From Trypanosoma brucei (lineage: Eukaryota): DNA of 64,000 nucleotides. Made by a program: the position numbers. The stretch is taken from the NCBI GenBank assembly GCA_000002445.1, contig CH464491.1:384001-448000 (forward strand), read 5' to 3'. Each line of letters starts with the position of its first letter. Position 1 is the stretch's first letter. Shown here one piece after another: positions 6,001 to 18,000 of the stretch.

Positions 6001-9000
6001 CTGTAGAGTGGGACAAAAACTTTGTTATATATATATATATATATATTTATTTATTTATTTATCTTGTATTTTGTCCCCAACACGTGGTATCTGACTGATC
6101 AATTACATCATGCCCTCTATCGCTTCGATGATTAAAGGGAATAAAGTGGTTGTTTTCTCATGGGTCACTTGCCCCTACTGCGTCCGAGCAGAGAAGTTAC
6201 TTCACGCACGCACTAAGGATATTACCGTACATTATGTGGATAAGATGAGCGAAGGAGAACAACTGCGCGGTGAGATTTACCAAGCATACAAACACGAAAC
6301 GGTTCCCGCCATATTTATTAATGGAAATTTCATTGGCGGTTGCAGCGATTTGGAGGCCCTTGACAAAGAGGGAAAACTCGATGGTTTGCTGAGCTAAATT
6401 TGAGACAGTGAGGAGGATTTTTTTTAAAAAAAAAGAAGAGAAAAAAGAGAAAGGGGGGATTACGTGAATATATATGCGGTTGCAACCCTCTGATTAATAT
6501 AGTGCCAAACGAGAGGTGTTTGCATATGTTGAGGGGGTAAACTACACACCCTTCCTTTATATACATCTCCTTCATCCTTCACTTGATCGCTTTCATTTTT
6601 TTTATATTTTTGTTCCTGCTTATATTAGGGGTTATAATGCATTATGCATGATGTGTTCTGCTCATTTCATACACGAGGGAAGGGAAAACGGAAACGGAAA
6701 TGCAAGAACGGGAGAGAGTAGGAGCGAGTGAACTGACATCAATTCAATCGGGGGAAGTGTTTAAAAACACCTCACCGGTATAACTTCCCCTATTGATACG
6801 TTACGCACGATGCTATTTCTGTTGTTGAATACTCGCGCTCTGAAGATCGCCTTTTAGCACATGTGCCACATTTCCCCTCGGCTCGGTCTTCTTTCTTTCT
6901 TATATGTTTGCTTCTACTCTTTTTTCTTTGTGTTTCCTCCAAATTACAACTGTTGTTAGGGGCTGCGACACGGTTTCACGGTACACATATAAAGTTATAT
7001 ACGTAGACGCCTGCGTACATTTCACAATTGGATACAGACACACAAGTTTTGTTTGAACTAAGAGGAAGTTCGGTAGTATAGATTCGAAGAAAGAAAAAGG
7101 AATACCTACGTGAGTATATTGTATAAAGGAGGAAACGGGCAAGAGCTGTTGAAGACAAATACTTCAAAGAGAGGACGTTTCCACACATACTTTTGAAAAG
7201 CGGCCGCAGTGCTGCATAAGTGCAGGAAGTAGAGTTGGAAAAAAAAAGAACAATTCCGACACCAAAACAACATTGGGTGTGTGCAAGTACGGCTCAAAAT
7301 CGCTATCACCACTTGAAACTGTGGTTTGAGTGAAAGGGACATGTTGTTAAACAATTTTATTGTTGAGGAACGTTACAGCGCATGGCAGAAGAAAAGGGTT
7401 CGAACAATCATCGTTAACAGCCGCTCACGGTTGGCTGCTCACCGCAGCATCACGGGAGCTTTGGCTATAGCGAAGCCGTACGAACGTATTGAGTTGGTGG
7501 GTGGTGAGTACTTCGAGTCGCTATTGATCAGTGCCCCTATTGAAATTGTGGCTGCGGACGGCGAGGAACCAGTTGTCTCCTCCCGTGGTTCCTGTATTAC
7601 CATCACACGAGATGTTGAGGCGTATTTTGAACAGGTAACATTTGTGTCAAAATCAAGAAGTAAACTGGAGTCCGCAGTGGCTATTCTCAACGGAAGATCC
7701 GTTTTCTTCCGCTGCAACATGAACTCTGTTCTGATAGGTGGATGGGCGCGCCCGTATATTGAAAACTGCACAATTGCTGAGAGTCACAACGGTTATGGAG
7801 TACAAATTGGTGACAGCGCGGGTGCTGACATTTGGCAATCGGCAATCCATTCACACCAAATAGCATGTATGGAGATTGATACGAGGGGTATAGTTAACGT
7901 GCGTGATAATACAATTCATCAGTCATCTAATTTGGGGAACGCTGTCGTCGTCAAGGCAATTAATAGCATCGCGGACGAAACCACTCCGCCAGAGTTCCTT
8001 GCATGCCGTCGAGTAGTAGTGACAAAATGCCGCATTTACATCAGCCCTGACTCTTATGTTCCAAAAGACCGCGACATGAGCTCACTGGAAACTCCAACGC
8101 AACCGTGTAGTTGTGTGTTGATATCACGGGGTGCGTGCCCAACATTTTCCTTCAACGAACTGACCCAAGGAAACATCGGGTTTACATTCGATGGTGCTGG
8201 TTCTGCTGTGCTAGAGGGAAATTGCATATACAAGCAGAAGATATGTGGTATTCTTGCTATTGTGGATGACACTAACTTCTCTCCAGACTCAAAATCAAGG
8301 GGTCTACGCATTACCGGAGGTAATCGAATTGACCGCTGTTACGTCGGGATAGACGTGCATTGCTCCGCAAAAGCTGCAATGGCCGCGGGAGTGAGCCAAC
8401 AAAACCTCATTCCGCTGGAACTGCCATCGAGTCGTAGGGCATTCACGTGGTTCAGGGGGAAGGATAGTGGCAAAGTTGTGGCTCCCCCTTCGGACAAGGA
8501 TAATTTTGATGATAACCACACTTTTGTAGTACATGGTCAGCCAAAAACAATGAAGCAACTGACAAATGAACTGAGAGAGTTGGCCACTATGGTGTGTGCC
8601 GGGCATATTAAGCACTTTACTTCGGCCACTGTTGCAGACACACGTTACGGCGTTGCCACGAGCCTTAACCAACTGGGAGAACTCTTGGAAGAGATGTTAA
8701 ACATCACAATTCCTCCACCTAACATTTCAGAACGTGCGGCTAAACTATTGGAGCTACGACGAACAGATGGAGTTGAGATTCGAGACACGAGGTTCTCCAG
8801 TTGTGGCCTCTGTGCTATTCGGTTCGGCAGCAGCTCCTATGGCGTAGTGGAAGATTGTAGTTTTGTTTCCTGCGGTGCAACGTGTATTGTGGTGTGTAGT
8901 GCGGCTCACCCTCTGATTATTGGATGTAGGTTTGAGCACGCAAAAGGTGTCGCCATTTACATGGACAACTTCGCCAACCCTCTTATCATGGGTAACGAAA

Positions 9001-15000: not shown

Positions 15001-18000
15001 CAGTACTGATGAAAAAGGGTGCGAGAGGCAGACTAATGAACAACAACATATCTAGCCACCTCAATGAGGGCGCATTGGCTGTAGACGAGGGGAGTGAAAC
15101 AAAGCTACTCTCAAACACGGTGCGAAACCAGTTTTCTCCCGTTTATAATAAGCTCCTGGGGCCGCAGCGCATGAGGGAAAGGCAAAATGCTGCCGATGTC
15201 TTGAAGACGGAGTTGCATGAGCTGGAGCAACGTGGGTCCGAATATGCAACAAAGTGTGCCGCGCTACAGGAGGAAATGCGAAGCGTATTCCATCGCTTAA
15301 GGGAAAGCTGCTGCGAAAGTGACGGTAGCAAGATGAATATTGGAACACTTCTTGGAAATTCGTTTCAGAAGGCATTATGTGCAGACGAGGACGAGAAGGA
15401 CGCCCTTAAATTGCCTGCACTGGATGTCCGAACCCTTTCTACAGAGGATTCTACCGCTCCTAATGACAAAGAAAAATCTCCCACCACACCTTCCATGTTG
15501 TCATCAACAGTTCGTGCCAGCACTTCGTCAGTGAAGGATGGAGGAAACAAAGATTCTTATAATATCCACATCCATCTTGTGCATACCGCATATGACGAGA
15601 GTGAGTGCGAACAAGTGTGCAACGAGGTACAATCTGTTTTTGATTCGCTCTCACTTTCACTGCAACTACCGCTACGCGTCCTCACCACGACTAACTCCTC
15701 GGCATTTCCTGCAAACTGGCCCTCGAAGCAGCTCAAAATATTTGTCGTTGTGGTTGGTAACATTACTAATGATGATTCCCTTGAGGACGATGTCAAGCTG
15801 GTGCGTGCGCTCCGGTTCCCGAAGACCTTAGCGGGTAACGAAGAAATCCCTGAGGAGATGAGTGATGTTCTCATTATTTCCATCATATCGGAGGAGTTTC
15901 AGGAGCATGCAGACGTGCTGCGCACCACAACATCCGGGTTTCCTTTGGCTGTGCAACTCCAAGATCTGTTGTCCCACAGCAATCCCATGCACTACGTTTC
16001 AGGCGTTTCGGAATGCCTTGAGGAATTGCACCGAAGAGCAGAGTCATATCTCCTGAATGCTGCGAATTCAGATAAATCTGATGATTACTTCACCAATGAC
16101 CCAGAAGAAGAACAGAGTTCCCGTTACTCAGCTGACACGCATGATGGTCACAAGACTGGTGCCTCTCCGAGGGGATCTGAGTGGCGGGGTACTTCGCCAA
16201 TGCTGGAATCGAAGGAAGATGAATGGCAGCGCCTCCCGGTGTTTGGGGAAAAATTAAACGCGTATATGTCATTTGATTTAATTAGGAAGAAGGTGAGCCA
16301 CTCAAATACATCCGTTCTGCTACCAAATGTTAGGTGAAAGTTGAAGAATGAATAGAAAGAAGTGTAGGATTGGGGAGGGGGAAAGTCGTAGAAAAGCAAA
16401 AACGATGAACAGTTGGTGTCTGCAATGCTTTACCAAATAAAAACTTAAGAGGAAGGAAAAAAAAAAGTTCGATTTGACGGATTCTCGCCTTGTGTGCTCG
16501 GAACAAAAAAGGTCTTGTGTGCATTTTTTTGAAGTTCCTGTTTTCTCCCTCCTCATCCATCCCTTACTTTCCAAAACTTCCATTTCTGTTGCTGATGTTG
16601 TCCACCACGTTTTTTCTACTTCAAATTCGTCCAGTGTTCATCTTTGAAACCCTTTCTAACTTGCCTGATATCCCAGAGCTGTTCACTTTTCCATCCTTCC
16701 TTCTTTTTCAGCCAGTTTTTTTTCGCTTTTAATTTCTTGTTTTTTCCTTCTCTTTCTGAATGGGACAGCTGCTCTCCTTGGTTTTACTCTTATTATTATT
16801 CCTATTTTTTTATTTCTTTATTTTGTGTAGTCGATAACTGTGCTTCTGTATTCCTTCATTTGAGGTAAAGCGATGAGAAGGAGTGATGGGGAGTGGCGGA
16901 TGTATTGGGTGAGATGGGTTCTTCCCACCACAGTAGCGGTAATTGTACCAATGGCGCTGGTAATTGTGAAGGCAGCAGTTGTGATAAGTTGACTACACAA
17001 ATATTTATACATACTTATGTATATGAACTTATATTCCTCTTTTAGGTCCTCTCTCCATTTTTTTTTTGATTCTACAAGTGTCTGTATTTTGTATGTTCCG
17101 GTAGATATTCTACGTTTTTTTCTTCTTGTCCTCTTTTTTCTTTTTTGTGCTTGCATTCTGACAAACGCGTGTATATATTTTACTTAAATGTCTTATCTTA
17201 TCCCCGTTGAGCATGTGTTGTGTGTTTTCAAAGCGAATGGTGACAAGTGCTTCCTCCAGATGTGAAGACAGAGATTGAATAAGTGGGTTTGTGGATCCGA
17301 AACCGCAAAGAAAAGAAAAAAAGAAAAAAACAACGAAAGTTGAGGTTCGAAGGTTGAAGCGAAATGAAACGTGACGTAACATCAGCATTAACCACATTCA
17401 AATATTTCATACTCTTTTTTCTGTTTCTTCTTTTTCCCCTATTGTTCCTGCTGATGTTTTTTATCTCATTCAGAATGATGTGATGTACCATACAAGGAGG
17501 AGAGGTACTTTTTTGGAAGAAAAAAAAGAAATTAAATGCACAATAAAATCAGTGCCCTATGATGCCCGTGCACTGTTATTGTGCTTCCGAAAATATATAC
17601 AACAATTTTCCCACATTTGTTCTTAATTTCTTTTCTGAGTTTGTGATCCATTATGATGAACGTCAAAAGCGCGCGTGTTAGGCGCATTACGCTGTATGTT
17701 AAGTGCTGCAATTGAGAGCGAGGTAATTGGAGAAAAGGGAGGCAAAAGGATATTAACGAATTATAGATGAGGGATAATAACATAAATAATAGGAGGGGAA
17801 TCGCTTAGCGAGGGAGAGGACATCCTTTCGGTTGTTGGAAGATAGCGACTGCAGTACTTCACAGTTGTCGTGAGTGTTTATTTAGGTTGGTATCAAGCCT
17901 TTATTTCTTACTACTGCTGAAAATTCGTGAATACATACTGTTGTTTATCCCTTTGTTGGCGGCCGTGGGGGAGGGAAATAAACGCAAATCTGCTTTTTTT

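What the first reader, a model, noticed from the sequence alone, without database searches (positions are those of the whole stretch)
7341..16337. Giant parallel-beta-helix (PbH1/CASH) repeat protein of about 3000 aa
About 7.5 kb of coding sequence consists of more than 50 degenerate 22-25 residue right-handed beta-helix rungs (GNxIxxN…GI motifs), a fold typical of pectate lyases, NosD and FBXO11 CASH domains. No F-box, signal peptide or TM is visible, and the C-terminus switches to a coiled-coil, acidic tail. Proteins this large built almost entirely of PbH1 rungs are rare in protists. This one sits in a cluster with flagellar (Rib72) and zinc-finger (ZC2HC1-like) genes, suggesting a cytoskeletal or flagellar scaffold rather than an enzyme.
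Basis: partly seen in the sequence, partly recalled or inferred. Interest (0 to 1): 0.55.

Follow-up and report, generated by a model that had tools for sequence, protein, structure and literature searches.

The report
Giant flagellar beta-helix protein of trypanosomes
The region is one intact, already annotated Trypanosoma brucei gene (Tb927.11.1380) for a 325-kDa protein made of about six right-handed beta-helix modules plus a small C-terminal alpha/beta domain; published proteomics puts it in the flagellar skeleton, but nobody has studied what it does.

Summary
**Observation: confirmed.** Window 7341-16337 (+) is one uninterrupted 2998-codon ORF. It is 100% identical to T. brucei TREU927 XP_828229.1 / UniProt Q387B4 (Tb927.11.1380).
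- Pfam Beta_helix scores E=8e-107 and NosD scores E=1e-65.
- A rung HMM built from the protein finds 48 rungs, against 0-1 in shuffled copies.
- Residues 471-907 are 19 regular 23-residue rungs.

**Architecture.** About six beta-helix modules are joined by disordered linkers. The middle module (aa 1335-1965) has large insertions. No F-box, signal peptide or TM segment was found.

**Family.** Single-copy, about 2250-3800 aa, found only in kinetoplastids and diplonemids. It is syntenic in T. cruzi.

**Location.** Two published proteomes place the protein in the flagellar cytoskeleton: hyperLOPIT class 'flagellum 1', and the DRC1-APEX2 axoneme proximity set.

**Best reading.** A non-enzymatic rigid scaffold of the axoneme or paraflagellar rod. 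The scaffold role is inferred, not shown.

**Novelty.** The gene and its domain labels are already in public databases, and giant beta-helix proteins are not rare in kinetoplastids (DGF-1). Interest is moderate to low.

The parts
7341..16337 (+). Complete CDS of Tb927.11.1380 (2998 aa + stop; 325.5 kDa, pI 6.35)
   Evidence: ORF and translation. 100% identical to P0042 = XP_828229.1 / Q387B4. Gene ID fixed by gene order and by the product name in PMC8141408 Table S1A. Mass and pI.
7341..8375 (+). N-terminal beta-helix module (aa 1-345). It carries the family signature SxWQxxxVRTxxVN and a DUF1565-like helix start (aa ~30-76). It is the most conserved part of the protein.
   Evidence: Mean identity to 14 orthologues is 51-55% over aa 1-100, and 60% to T. 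cruzi over 305 aa. Pfam Beta_helix hits 10/10 orthologues and DUF1565 hits 6/10. hhalign to block A gives 97.5% probability for aa 120-340.
8376..8750 (+). Non-repeat linker (aa 346-470), poorly conserved
   Evidence: No hhalign match to the rung block. Identity is 14-19% and occupancy is low.
8751..10061 (+). Beta-helix module A (aa 471-907): 19 regular 23-residue rungs
   Evidence: Lag-23 autocorrelation; in-phase rows; HMM hits. Best Pfam stretch is 675-831. Rungs are conserved by position: orthologous rungs are 0.24-0.42 identical against 0.14-0.15 for non-orthologous rungs. The profile hits AlgG at E=2.6e-9 and NosD at E=0.002 in the PDB.
10062..10205 (+). Disordered Ser/Arg/Lys-rich linker (aa 908-955)
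   Evidence: Segment 909-966 is poor in hydrophobic residues and weakly conserved.
10206..11135 (+). Beta-helix module B (aa 956-1265)
   Evidence: hhalign to block A gives 99.6% probability, E=1.7e-24. Pfam hits in slices 901-1200 and 1201-1500. Rung HMM hits from 962 to 1261.
11136..11342 (+). Disordered linker (aa 1266-1334)
   Evidence: Segment 1267-1333 is poor in hydrophobic residues; identity is 17-23%.
11343..13235 (+). Middle module (aa 1335-1965): a beta-helix interrupted by large insertions
   Evidence: AlphaFold2 model with 12 orthologues: pTM 0.72. Rungs with block-mean pLDDT mostly 85-97 at aa 1345-1420, 1534-1562, 1669-1693, 1784-1812, 1849-1893 and 1929-1964. Helical insert at 1458-1497. 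Low-confidence loops at 1616-1663 and 1697-1780. The top Foldseek PDB hits are nearly all right-handed beta-helix proteins, but none is significant (all E>0.05). The sequence-only signal is weak.
13236..15122 (+). C-terminal beta-helix modules D/E (aa 1966-2594)
   Evidence: hhalign to block A: aa 1925-2160 at 96.4% and aa 2160-2590 at 99.5%, E=2.5e-23. Pfam hits in slices 1801-2700. Rung HMM hits from 2063 to 2572.
15123..15320 (+). Conserved RNQFSP motif followed by one long alpha-helix (aa 2595-2660); a possible coiled coil
   Evidence: N33, F39 and P41 are invariant in alignment A1, and Q38 and S40 are nearly invariant. AlphaFold2 gives a helix at aa 2600-2659 with pLDDT about 90. That it forms a coiled coil is an inference.
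15321..15557 (+). Disordered Ser/Thr-rich linker (aa 2661-2739)
   Evidence: pLDDT 32-46; alignment is gappy and variable in length.
15558..16079 (+). C-terminal flavodoxin-like (CheY-receiver/TIR-like) alpha/beta domain (aa 2740-2913)
16080..16334 (+). Disordered charged tail (aa 2914-2998)
   Evidence: pLDDT 31-37; poorly conserved, 11% identity.

Best explanation
The region encodes Tb927.11.1380, a single-copy 325-kDa intracellular protein of a family restricted to kinetoplastids and diplonemids.

**Architecture.** About six right-handed CASH-type beta-helix modules are strung on disordered Ser/Arg/Lys-rich linkers. There are 48-50 detectable rungs. By length there are probably 60-80, which would be roughly 30-40 nm of rigid rod. 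After the repeats come a long helix and a small flavodoxin-like domain.

**Most likely role.** It is a non-catalytic structural or docking component of the detergent-insoluble flagellar skeleton (axoneme and/or paraflagellar rod). The flat faces of position-specifically conserved rungs would bind partner proteins. The C-terminal helix plus alpha/beta domain would mediate self-association or anchoring.

**Shown:** the gene, the fold, the architecture, the phylogenetic distribution, and (from published proteomics) the flagellar-cytoskeleton fractionation and proximity to DRC1.

**Inferred:** the scaffold role, the binding surfaces, and the roles of the helix and the alpha/beta domain.
For: - **Fold and repeats:**
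- **Identity:** the protein equals XP_828229.1 / Q387B4. The ID Tb927.11.1380 is fixed three ways. Gene order runs MCU (1350), zf-C2HC (1360), glutaredoxin (1370), the giant (1380), and so on to CMF2/Rib72-like (1430). The 1430 anchor comes from PMC3811416. The product name 'Right handed beta helix region/...NosD, putative' appears against this ID in PMC8141408 Table S1A.
- **Flagellar skeleton:** hyperLOPIT puts it in 'flagellum 1' with probability 0.999998, 1 and 0.985 in three tables. The paper defines that class as the axoneme + PFR core (PMC10361982). It is also a member of the 697-protein DRC1-APEX2 pellet proximity proteome.
- **Intracellular:** no signal peptide or TM segment.
- **No known catalytic or ligase modules:** Pfam reports only Beta_helix and NosD. 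The AlgG DPHD rung aligns to the consensus 'kGGvavaegs'.
- **Position-specific constraint on rungs:** orthologous rungs are 0.24-0.42 identical, non-orthologous rungs 0.14-0.15. There are 45 invariant columns in block A.
- **Conserved architecture and length** in Trypanosoma, Leptomonas, Phytomonas and a 2249-aa sequence in Apiculatamorpha, with shorter or partial sequences from Angomonas and diplonemids. It is syntenic in T. cruzi.
Against: - No direct localisation image was seen. TrypTag data were not in the held supplements.
- No phenotype is known.
- It is absent from the text of the trypanosomatid doublet-microtubule cryo-EM paper and from the supplements of the Leishmania flagellar proteome paper.
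- It was not seen in flagellar proteomes before 2021 (Table S1A heading). That could mean low abundance or loose association.
- hyperLOPIT and APEX2 cannot separate axoneme from PFR, and neither shows a structural role.
- CASH-type helices are most often enzymes, and several Asp/Glu/His columns are invariant. Catalysis is therefore not excluded.
Confidence: 0.55

Rival explanations
1. It is an enzyme or lectin acting on a glycan or another polymer, such as an epimerase, lyase or hydrolase like other CASH/pectin-lyase-fold proteins. It would be carried in or on the flagellum.
For: - UniRef names it 'Carbohydrate-binding/sugar hydrolysis domain-containing protein'.
- The block A profile hits the alginate C5-epimerase AlgG at E=2.6e-9, GH110 at E=6e-4 and NosD at E=2e-3 in the PDB.
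- The top Foldseek hits of the middle model include AlgG, AlgE, polygalacturonase and tailspikes.
- Some acidic and His columns are invariant, for example D213-P214 in 'ELDADP' and H172 in the N-terminal module.
Against: - With no signal peptide or TM segment it sits in the cytosol or axoneme, where polysaccharide substrates are not known.
- The AlgG catalytic DPHD motif is not present at the aligned rung.
- Pfam hits are to generic repeat models only.
- Conservation is spread over all rungs rather than focused in one cleft.
Confidence: 0.15
2. It is an FBXO11/FBXO10- or SHCBP1-like adaptor. In this reading the CASH-type beta-helices recognise substrates for ubiquitylation, or recruit signalling or cytokinesis factors.
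For: Like those proteins it is an intracellular eukaryotic protein whose only recognisable repeats are CASH/PbH1 rungs. This is a resemblance taken from the literature, not a test.
Against: - No F-box or UBR zinc finger appears in Pfam at E<=1.
- A full HMMER scan of 1.84 billion representatives with aa 1799-2998 returned 35 hits. Those that could be assigned to an organism were kinetoplastid or diplonemid. The weak ones that carried a name were generic bacterial or metagenomic beta-helix proteins. No named hit was FBXO11 or SHCBP1.
- It is 3-4 times larger than those proteins.
- It fractionates with the flagellar skeleton.
Confidence: 0.07
3. It is a relative of the trypanosomatid surface families built of beta-helix modules (DGF-1, bodonins). 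That would make it an adhesin-like surface or flagellar-membrane protein.
For: DGF-1 proteins are also built of tandem right-handed beta-helix modules, seven of about 390 aa each, and occur in the same group of organisms.
Against: - It has no signal peptide and no C-terminal TM or 'hat' region.
- The DGF-1 study reports that African trypanosomes lack DGF-1 and rib-like domains. This gene, by contrast, is present there, single-copy and syntenic.
- hyperLOPIT places it in the cytoskeletal flagellar class, not a membrane or secretory class.
Confidence: 0.03
4. The flagellar assignment is a fractionation or proximity artefact of a very large, sticky cytoplasmic or subpellicular-cytoskeleton protein.
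For: - It was not detected in flagellar proteomes before 2021.
- One hyperLOPIT table leaves it 'unknown' after thresholding, at probability 0.985.
- About a quarter of DRC1p proteins with TrypTag data are not annotated as flagellar.
Against: - Two independent methods agree.
- hyperLOPIT resolves separate 'microtubule structures 1/2' and cytosol classes, and still gives 'flagellum 1' at probability about 1 in two tables.
Confidence: 0.15

Closest known systems
CASH-type right-handed parallel beta-helix proteins (Pfam Beta_helix PF13229 / NosD PF05048; solved examples AlgG 4nk6/4nk8 and NosD 7o0y)
   Same: Same 22-25-residue three-strand rung with Gly/Asn/Ile positions. Pfam E=8e-107 and 1e-65. 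The block A profile hits AlgG at E=2.6e-9 and NosD at E=2e-3. The N-terminal start resembles DUF1565.
   Different: - Those are secreted or periplasmic single-module proteins of about 400-500 aa (the solved chains listed are 423-491 aa; location is from background knowledge). This one is intracellular, 2998 aa, with about six modules.
- The AlgG DPHD motif is absent.
- It has an extra C-terminal helix and flavodoxin-like domain.
DGF-1 (Dispersed Gene Family 1) of Trypanosoma cruzi and rib-like bodonins
   Same: Large trypanosomatid proteins made of several tandem right-handed beta-helix modules joined by flexible linkers.
   Different: - DGF-1 has a signal peptide, seven ~390-aa 'ribs', a 'hat' domain and TM helices. 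It is a large multicopy family and is absent from African trypanosomes.
- Tb927.11.1380 has none of these membrane features. It is single-copy, syntenic, present in African trypanosomes, and fractionates with the flagellar skeleton.
FBXO11 / FBXO10 (CASH-domain F-box proteins) and SHCBP1 / Nessun Dorma
   Same: Intracellular eukaryotic proteins in which PbH1/CASH beta-helices serve as protein-binding platforms (literature). This gives a functional analogy for a non-enzymatic beta-helix.
   Different: No F-box or UBR box. No specific sequence relationship was detected. This protein is much larger, has a different domain order, and is flagellar.
CheY-like receiver and TIR domains (flavodoxin-like fold)
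   Different: 5-15% identity. No Pfam or PDB sequence hit even with a family profile. No acidic residue is invariant, so there is no conserved phospho-acceptor Asp or TIR catalytic Glu; only one His and one Leu are invariant. It is probably a structural pseudo-receiver.

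Membership tests
Right-handed parallel beta-helix / CASH repeat superfamily (Pfam PF13229, PF05048; SMART PbH1) | Significant match to the repeat profiles over multiple tandem rungs | tested here: met
   PF13229 E=7.9e-107 in 14 stretches; PF05048 E=1.2e-65 in 10 stretches. 48 rungs by own HMM against 0-1 in shuffles.
Right-handed parallel beta-helix / CASH repeat superfamily (Pfam PF13229, PF05048; SMART PbH1) | Three-dimensional right-handed beta-solenoid | tested here: inconclusive
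   Only the least regular part (aa 1335-1965) was modelled. It gave pTM 0.72 with rungs at high pLDDT (block means mostly 85-97), and the top Foldseek hits were nearly all right-handed beta-helix proteins, but none was significant (all E>0.05). Their fold rests on profile homology to AlgG and NosD.
Alginate C5-epimerase AlgG/AlgE-type enzymes | Catalytic DPHD motif on the rung that forms the active-site cleft | tested here: not met
   In the HMMER alignment to 4nk8, the AlgG segment 'YGIAPHDRS' aligns to the family consensus 'kGGvavaegs'. No DPH is seen in the block A consensus.
Alginate C5-epimerase AlgG/AlgE-type enzymes | Secretion to the periplasm or outside the cell, where the polysaccharide substrate is | tested here: not met
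   The N-terminus is charged with no signal peptide, and there is no TM segment.
NosD (nitrous oxide reductase maturation protein) | Periplasmic ~430-aa protein of the bacterial nosDFY ABC system | tested here: not met
   This is a eukaryotic nuclear gene in a polycistron with unrelated genes. It encodes 2998 aa with no signal peptide. The PDB NosD hit is only E=0.002 over about 100 residues. The database name 'NosD, putative' reflects the shared repeat only.
FBXO11/FBXO10 CASH-domain F-box proteins | N-terminal F-box that binds SKP1 | tested here: not met
   No F-box family appears in the Pfam scan of the whole protein at E<=1.
FBXO11/FBXO10 CASH-domain F-box proteins | C-terminal UBR-type zinc finger (FBXO11) | tested here: not met
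   No zf-UBR hit. The C-terminus is a helix plus a flavodoxin-like domain.
DGF-1 (T. cruzi dispersed gene family 1) | Signal peptide, seven rib modules, hat domain and C-terminal TM helices | tested here: not met
   No signal peptide or TM segment, and a different C-terminus. The DGF-1 study finds no DGF-1 or rib-like domains in African trypanosomes. A direct sequence comparison with a DGF-1 protein was not run.
CheY-like receiver domain | Flavodoxin-like (beta/alpha)5 fold | tested here: met
CheY-like receiver domain | Conserved acidic pocket and phospho-acceptor Asp at the end of beta3 | tested here: not met
   In the family alignment only one His (strand 1) and one Leu are invariant. The residues after strand 3 vary (GNITND, GLGEGW, LMRAGK, LDAQLD...).
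Flagellar cytoskeleton proteins of T. brucei (axoneme/PFR) | Co-fractionation with axoneme/PFR markers and proximity to an axonemal bait | tested here: met
   Taken from published data, not from new experiments. hyperLOPIT 'flagellum 1', probability about 1 (PMC10361982). DRC1-APEX2 proximity proteome Table S1A (PMC8141408).
Flagellar cytoskeleton proteins of T. brucei (axoneme/PFR) | Microscopic localisation along the flagellum, and a flagellar phenotype on depletion | not testable with these tools
   The TrypTag localisation table was not in the held supplements. No paper in the library names the gene in its text.

The most novel reading that the evidence does not exclude
Tb927.11.1380 and its orthologues form a flagellar structure specific to kinetoplastids and diplonemids. 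It would be a ~30-40 nm rigid multi-beta-solenoid rod, with a dimerising helix and a pseudo-receiver head, that acts as a connector or spacer within the paraflagellar rod or between the rod and the axoneme. That would be the first beta-helix structural element described in any eukaryotic flagellum. The known distribution (kinetoplastids and diplonemids only) is compatible with the lineage that has a paraflagellar rod.
Probability: 0.2. Interest if true: 0.6.

Novelty: new member of a known kind. Interest (0 to 1): 0.33.

Why it matters
The trypanosome flagellum is needed for motility, division and transmission, and it contains many lineage-specific proteins of unknown role. This protein is one of the largest of them. 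It is conserved across kinetoplastids and diplonemids, and it is built on a fold not otherwise known as a flagellar building block.

If it is a structural rod or connector, it would add a new type of element to axoneme/PFR architecture. It would also give cryo-ET studies a recognisable density to look for.

As it stands, the sequence finding adds little to public annotation. New here are the module map, the position-specific conservation of rungs, the missing AlgG motif, and the flavodoxin-like C-terminal domain.

Tried and rejected
**Searches that gave little**
- The search for homologous proteins with the full protein timed out.
- The N-terminal 500 aa found only a partial T. cruzi entry. 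The C-terminal 439 aa found nothing. Block A found four weak bacterial or metagenomic hits. The word-indexed search therefore missed the kinetoplastid orthologues that the full HMMER scan later found.
- Exact look-up of the protein's encoding contig: not on record.
- phmmer of the whole protein against the PDB: no hit at E<=1.
- Family profiles of the N-terminal module and the C-terminal domain against the PDB: nothing meaningful.
- Pfam on the C-terminal domain of 11 orthologues: only chance-level hits.
- The afdb50 fold library was unavailable.

**Literature dead ends**
- No held paper names Tb927.11.1370/1380 or the guessed old IDs of the Tb11.47.* series for these genes in its text. The one old-ID hit (Tb11.47.0016) could not be mapped to a gene.
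- The TrypTag supplements held do not contain the gene.
- The gene is also absent from the structure-based annotation paper, the proximal-distal axoneme paper, the text of the doublet-microtubule cryo-EM paper and the Leishmania flagellar proteome supplements.

**Ideas rejected**
- The giant is Tb927.11.1370. Rejected: that ID is a hyperLOPIT cytosol marker, gene order places it on the 95-aa glutaredoxin ORF at 6110-6397, and PMC8141408 Table S1A gives the beta-helix product name to Tb927.11.1380.
- The hydrophobic stretch at aa 1479-1497 is a TM segment. Rejected: it is a helix packed inside the middle-module model.
- The 'ELDADP' rung is equivalent to the AlgG DPHD motif. Rejected: it aligns elsewhere.
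- Collapsed-repeat assembly artefact. Rejected: there are no DNA repeats, the protein is identical to the reference, and orthologues have equal length.

Full report
**1. What is in the sequence**

Window 7326..16337 (+) is a single open reading frame with no stop codon. The first ATG is at 7341, giving a 2998-aa protein of 325.5 kDa and pI 6.35. Every ORF of 200 aa or more in the window lies on the + strand, apart from one 210-aa minus-strand ORF inside the adenylate cyclase gene.

The ORFs encode the following:
- a mitochondrial calcium uniporter and a C2HC zinc-finger protein upstream of the giant ORF;
- three ORFs with no Pfam match and a WD40 protein;
- a 3xDM10 + EF-hand (Rib72-like) protein;
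- 2-oxoglutarate dehydrogenase E1;
- a FYVE-Cpn60-PIP5K kinase;
- an ISG65/75 surface glycoprotein;
- a receptor-type adenylate cyclase;
- an ESAG8-like LRR protein.

This is a Trypanosoma brucei polycistronic unit. The giant protein is 100% identical to XP_828229.1 / EAN79117.1 / UniProt Q387B4 of T. b. brucei TREU927. NCBI calls it 'hypothetical protein, conserved'. UniRef calls it 'Carbohydrate-binding/sugar hydrolysis domain-containing protein'.

**2.

- Pfam gives Beta_helix at E=7.9e-107 (14 stretches) and NosD at E=1.2e-65.
- Slicing the protein into ten pieces shows hits in every slice of aa 1-1500 and 1801-2700.
- BLOSUM autocorrelation peaks at lag 23, 46 and 69 in aa 481-1000.
- Residues 471-907 form 19 in-phase 23-residue rungs.
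- A rung HMM trained on those rows finds 48 rungs at i-E<0.1. Each of 20 shuffles gives 0-1, and four other large proteins of the window give 0.
- There is no DNA-level tandem repeat. The repeats are therefore old and degenerate, and this is not an assembly artefact. Orthologues of nearly the same length exist.

**3. Architecture**

Profile-profile comparison (hhalign) of orthologue alignments against block A shows four homologous beta-helix regions:
- aa 120-340, 97.5% probability;
- aa 955-1265, 99.6%;
- aa 1925-2160, 96.4%;
- aa 2160-2590, 99.5%.

The segment aa 346-470 shows no relation. The middle part (aa 1400-1930) shows only isolated rungs.

An AlphaFold2 model of aa 1335-1965, built with 12 orthologues, has pTM 0.72. 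It shows rungs with block-mean pLDDT mostly 85-97 at aa 1345-1420, 1534-1562, 1669-1693, 1784-1812, 1849-1893 and 1929-1964. These are separated by a helical insert (aa 1458-1497) and low-confidence loops. The top Foldseek hits in the PDB are nearly all right-handed beta-helix proteins, including tailspikes, AlgG/AlgE, polygalacturonase and pertactin. None of them is significant (all E>0.05). The middle is therefore best read as a beta-helix with large insertions.

Segments poor in hydrophobic residues at aa 909-966, 1267-1333 and 1681-1750 look like disordered linkers.

By detectable rungs the count is about 50. By module length it is probably 60-80. At 4.8 A per rung (a textbook value) that is 30-40 nm of rigid rod. 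This length is an estimate, not a measurement.

**4. The C-terminus is more than a coiled coil and a tail**

After a motif that is invariant or nearly invariant across the family (RNQFSP, aa 2595-2600), AlphaFold2 predicts four elements:
- a single helix at aa 2600-2659, pLDDT about 90;
- a disordered stretch;
- an alpha/beta domain at aa 2740-2913 with alternating strands and helices, pLDDT mostly 70-92 with dips to 43-60;
- a disordered tail.

No sequence-level family is detectable, even with a profile of 11 orthologues. No acidic residue is invariant; only one His in strand 1 and one Leu are. I read it as a flavodoxin-like structural or interaction domain. It is not a phospho-receiver and not a TIR NADase.

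**5. Family and distribution**

A full HMMER scan of 1.84 billion representative proteins with aa 1799-2998 returned only 35 hits at E<=1e-3.

The strong hits are proteins of about 2250-3800 aa, plus some fragments, from:
- T. vivax, T. melophagium, Leptomonas seymouri and Phytomonas;
- Angomonas (a fragment);
- Apiculatamorpha spiralis;
- the diplonemids Diplonema ambulator and Artemidia motanka (shorter transcriptome sequences, weak hits at E about 1e-12 to 1e-7);
- unnamed assemblies and metagenomes.

The weak hits that carry a name are generic bacterial or metagenomic beta-helix proteins.

The T. cruzi locus is syntenic (MCU, zf-C2HC, giant), but that assembly cuts the gene with two runs of N.

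Conservation is highest in the first 100 residues: 51-55% mean identity to 14 orthologues, and 60% to T. cruzi over 305 aa. It is lowest in the C-terminal tail.

The N-terminal module has a family signature (SxWQxxxVRTxxVN). This is followed by the usual beta-helix start. DUF1565 is matched in 6 of 10 orthologues and Beta_helix in 10 of 10.

In block A the rungs are conserved by position. Orthologous rungs are 24-42% identical, while non-orthologous rungs are 14-15% identical. The 19-rung layout is therefore ancient, and each rung is under its own constraint.

**6. Which gene it is, and where the protein is found**

- The Rib72-like gene at 30694 is Tb927.11.1430 (PMC3811416).
- A 95-aa ORF at 6110-6397 is a CPYC glutaredoxin (Pfam E=1.8e-14).
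- With it, the eleven genes from MCU to OGDH fill the IDs Tb927.11.1350-1450 without a gap. The giant is then Tb927.11.1380.

That table holds proteins of the DRC1-APEX2 proximity proteome of detergent-insoluble pellets that earlier flagellar proteomes had missed.

Independently, the hyperLOPIT spatial proteome assigns Tb927.11.1380 to 'flagellum 1' with probabilities 0.999998, 1 and 0.985; the last is left 'unknown' after thresholding (PMC10361982). [quoted passage not shown]

I could not find a microscopy result or any functional study.

**7. How it most likely works**

*Shown.* The protein is intracellular, with no signal peptide or TM segment. It has multiple modules of the CASH-type beta-helix fold. 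It carries no other known catalytic or ligase domain. It fractionates with the flagellar skeleton and lies near DRC1 (published data).

*Tested negative.* The catalytic DPHD rung of AlgG, its closest solved relative (E=2.6e-9), aligns to 'kGGvavaegs' in the family consensus.

*Inferred.*
- The protein is a rigid, elongated scaffold or connector of the axoneme or paraflagellar rod.
- Its position-specifically conserved rung faces bind partners.
- The C-terminal helix and flavodoxin-like domain mediate self-association or anchoring.
- The Ser/Arg/Lys-rich linkers give flexibility and may be regulated.

I put this at about 0.55. The rivals, scored in the rival section, are:
- an enzyme or lectin;
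- an FBXO11/SHCBP1-like adaptor;
- a DGF-1-like surface protein;
- a fractionation artefact.

**8. Comparison with what is known, and novelty**

It is a member of the right-handed beta-helix / CASH superfamily. It is not NosD, not an AlgG-type epimerase, not an F-box protein and not DGF-1; the defining features of each were tested and not met.

The database label 'NosD, putative' reflects the repeat only.

Giant multi-module beta-helix proteins are not rare in this lineage. T. cruzi DGF-1 has seven such modules. However, DGF-1 is a multicopy surface family that is absent from African trypanosomes.

The gene, its domain labels and its presence in flagellar proteomes are already public.

What this analysis adds:
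- the module map;
- the reading of the middle region as an interrupted helix;
- position-specific conservation of rungs;
- absence of the AlgG motif;
- the family signature at the N-terminus;
- the flavodoxin-like C-terminal domain;
- the restriction of the family to kinetoplastids and diplonemids.

I rate it a new (uncharacterised) member of a known kind, with interest 0.33. The most novel reading still open is a beta-solenoid structural rod specific to the kinetoplastid/diplonemid flagellum or paraflagellar rod. I give that a probability of about 0.2.

Noticed in passing
window 6110-6397 (+): A 95-aa dithiol glutaredoxin gene (CPYC active site; Pfam Glutaredoxin E=1.8e-14) lies in what looks like the intergenic gap upstream of the giant gene. 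By gene order it is Tb927.11.1370, a hyperLOPIT cytosol marker. Finding it settled the gene numbering.
   Followed up: yes
window 15558-16079 (+), aa 2740-2913 of the giant protein: A folded flavodoxin-like (CheY/TIR-like) domain with no detectable sequence family. It is conserved, weakly, in all orthologues, with a single invariant His in strand 1.
   Followed up: yes
window 52105-59506: 7.4 kb between the adenylate cyclase gene and the ESAG8-like LRR gene with no ORF of 150 aa or more on either strand. GC is low (0.39-0.45) and AT skew is strong (-0.22 at 52-54 kb). It could be degenerate repeats, pseudogenes or long UTRs.
   Followed up: no
L001 10001-18820 (T. cruzi GCA_003719155.1, contig MKQG01002396.1): The T. 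cruzi orthologue is annotated as a 304-aa 'partial' protein plus a separate 2081-aa protein. Two runs of N (10915-11860 and 18104-18670) interrupt the gene. It is one gene, syntenic with the T. brucei locus.
   Followed up: partly
window 18154-19557 and 23649-24899 (+): By the same gene count these two ORFs with no Pfam match are Tb927.11.1390 and Tb927.11.1410. Both are listed under 'Nucleolus periphery points' in a TrypTag supplement, and 1390 is 'nucleus' in hyperLOPIT. The giant gene's immediate downstream neighbours are therefore nuclear, not flagellar.
   Followed up: partly
window 8751-10061 (+), aa 471-907: One rung carries a family-wide motif, GIVVELDADP, in which D683 and P684 are invariant in 8 of 8 sequences. 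It does not correspond to the AlgG catalytic motif, and its role is unknown.
   Followed up: partly
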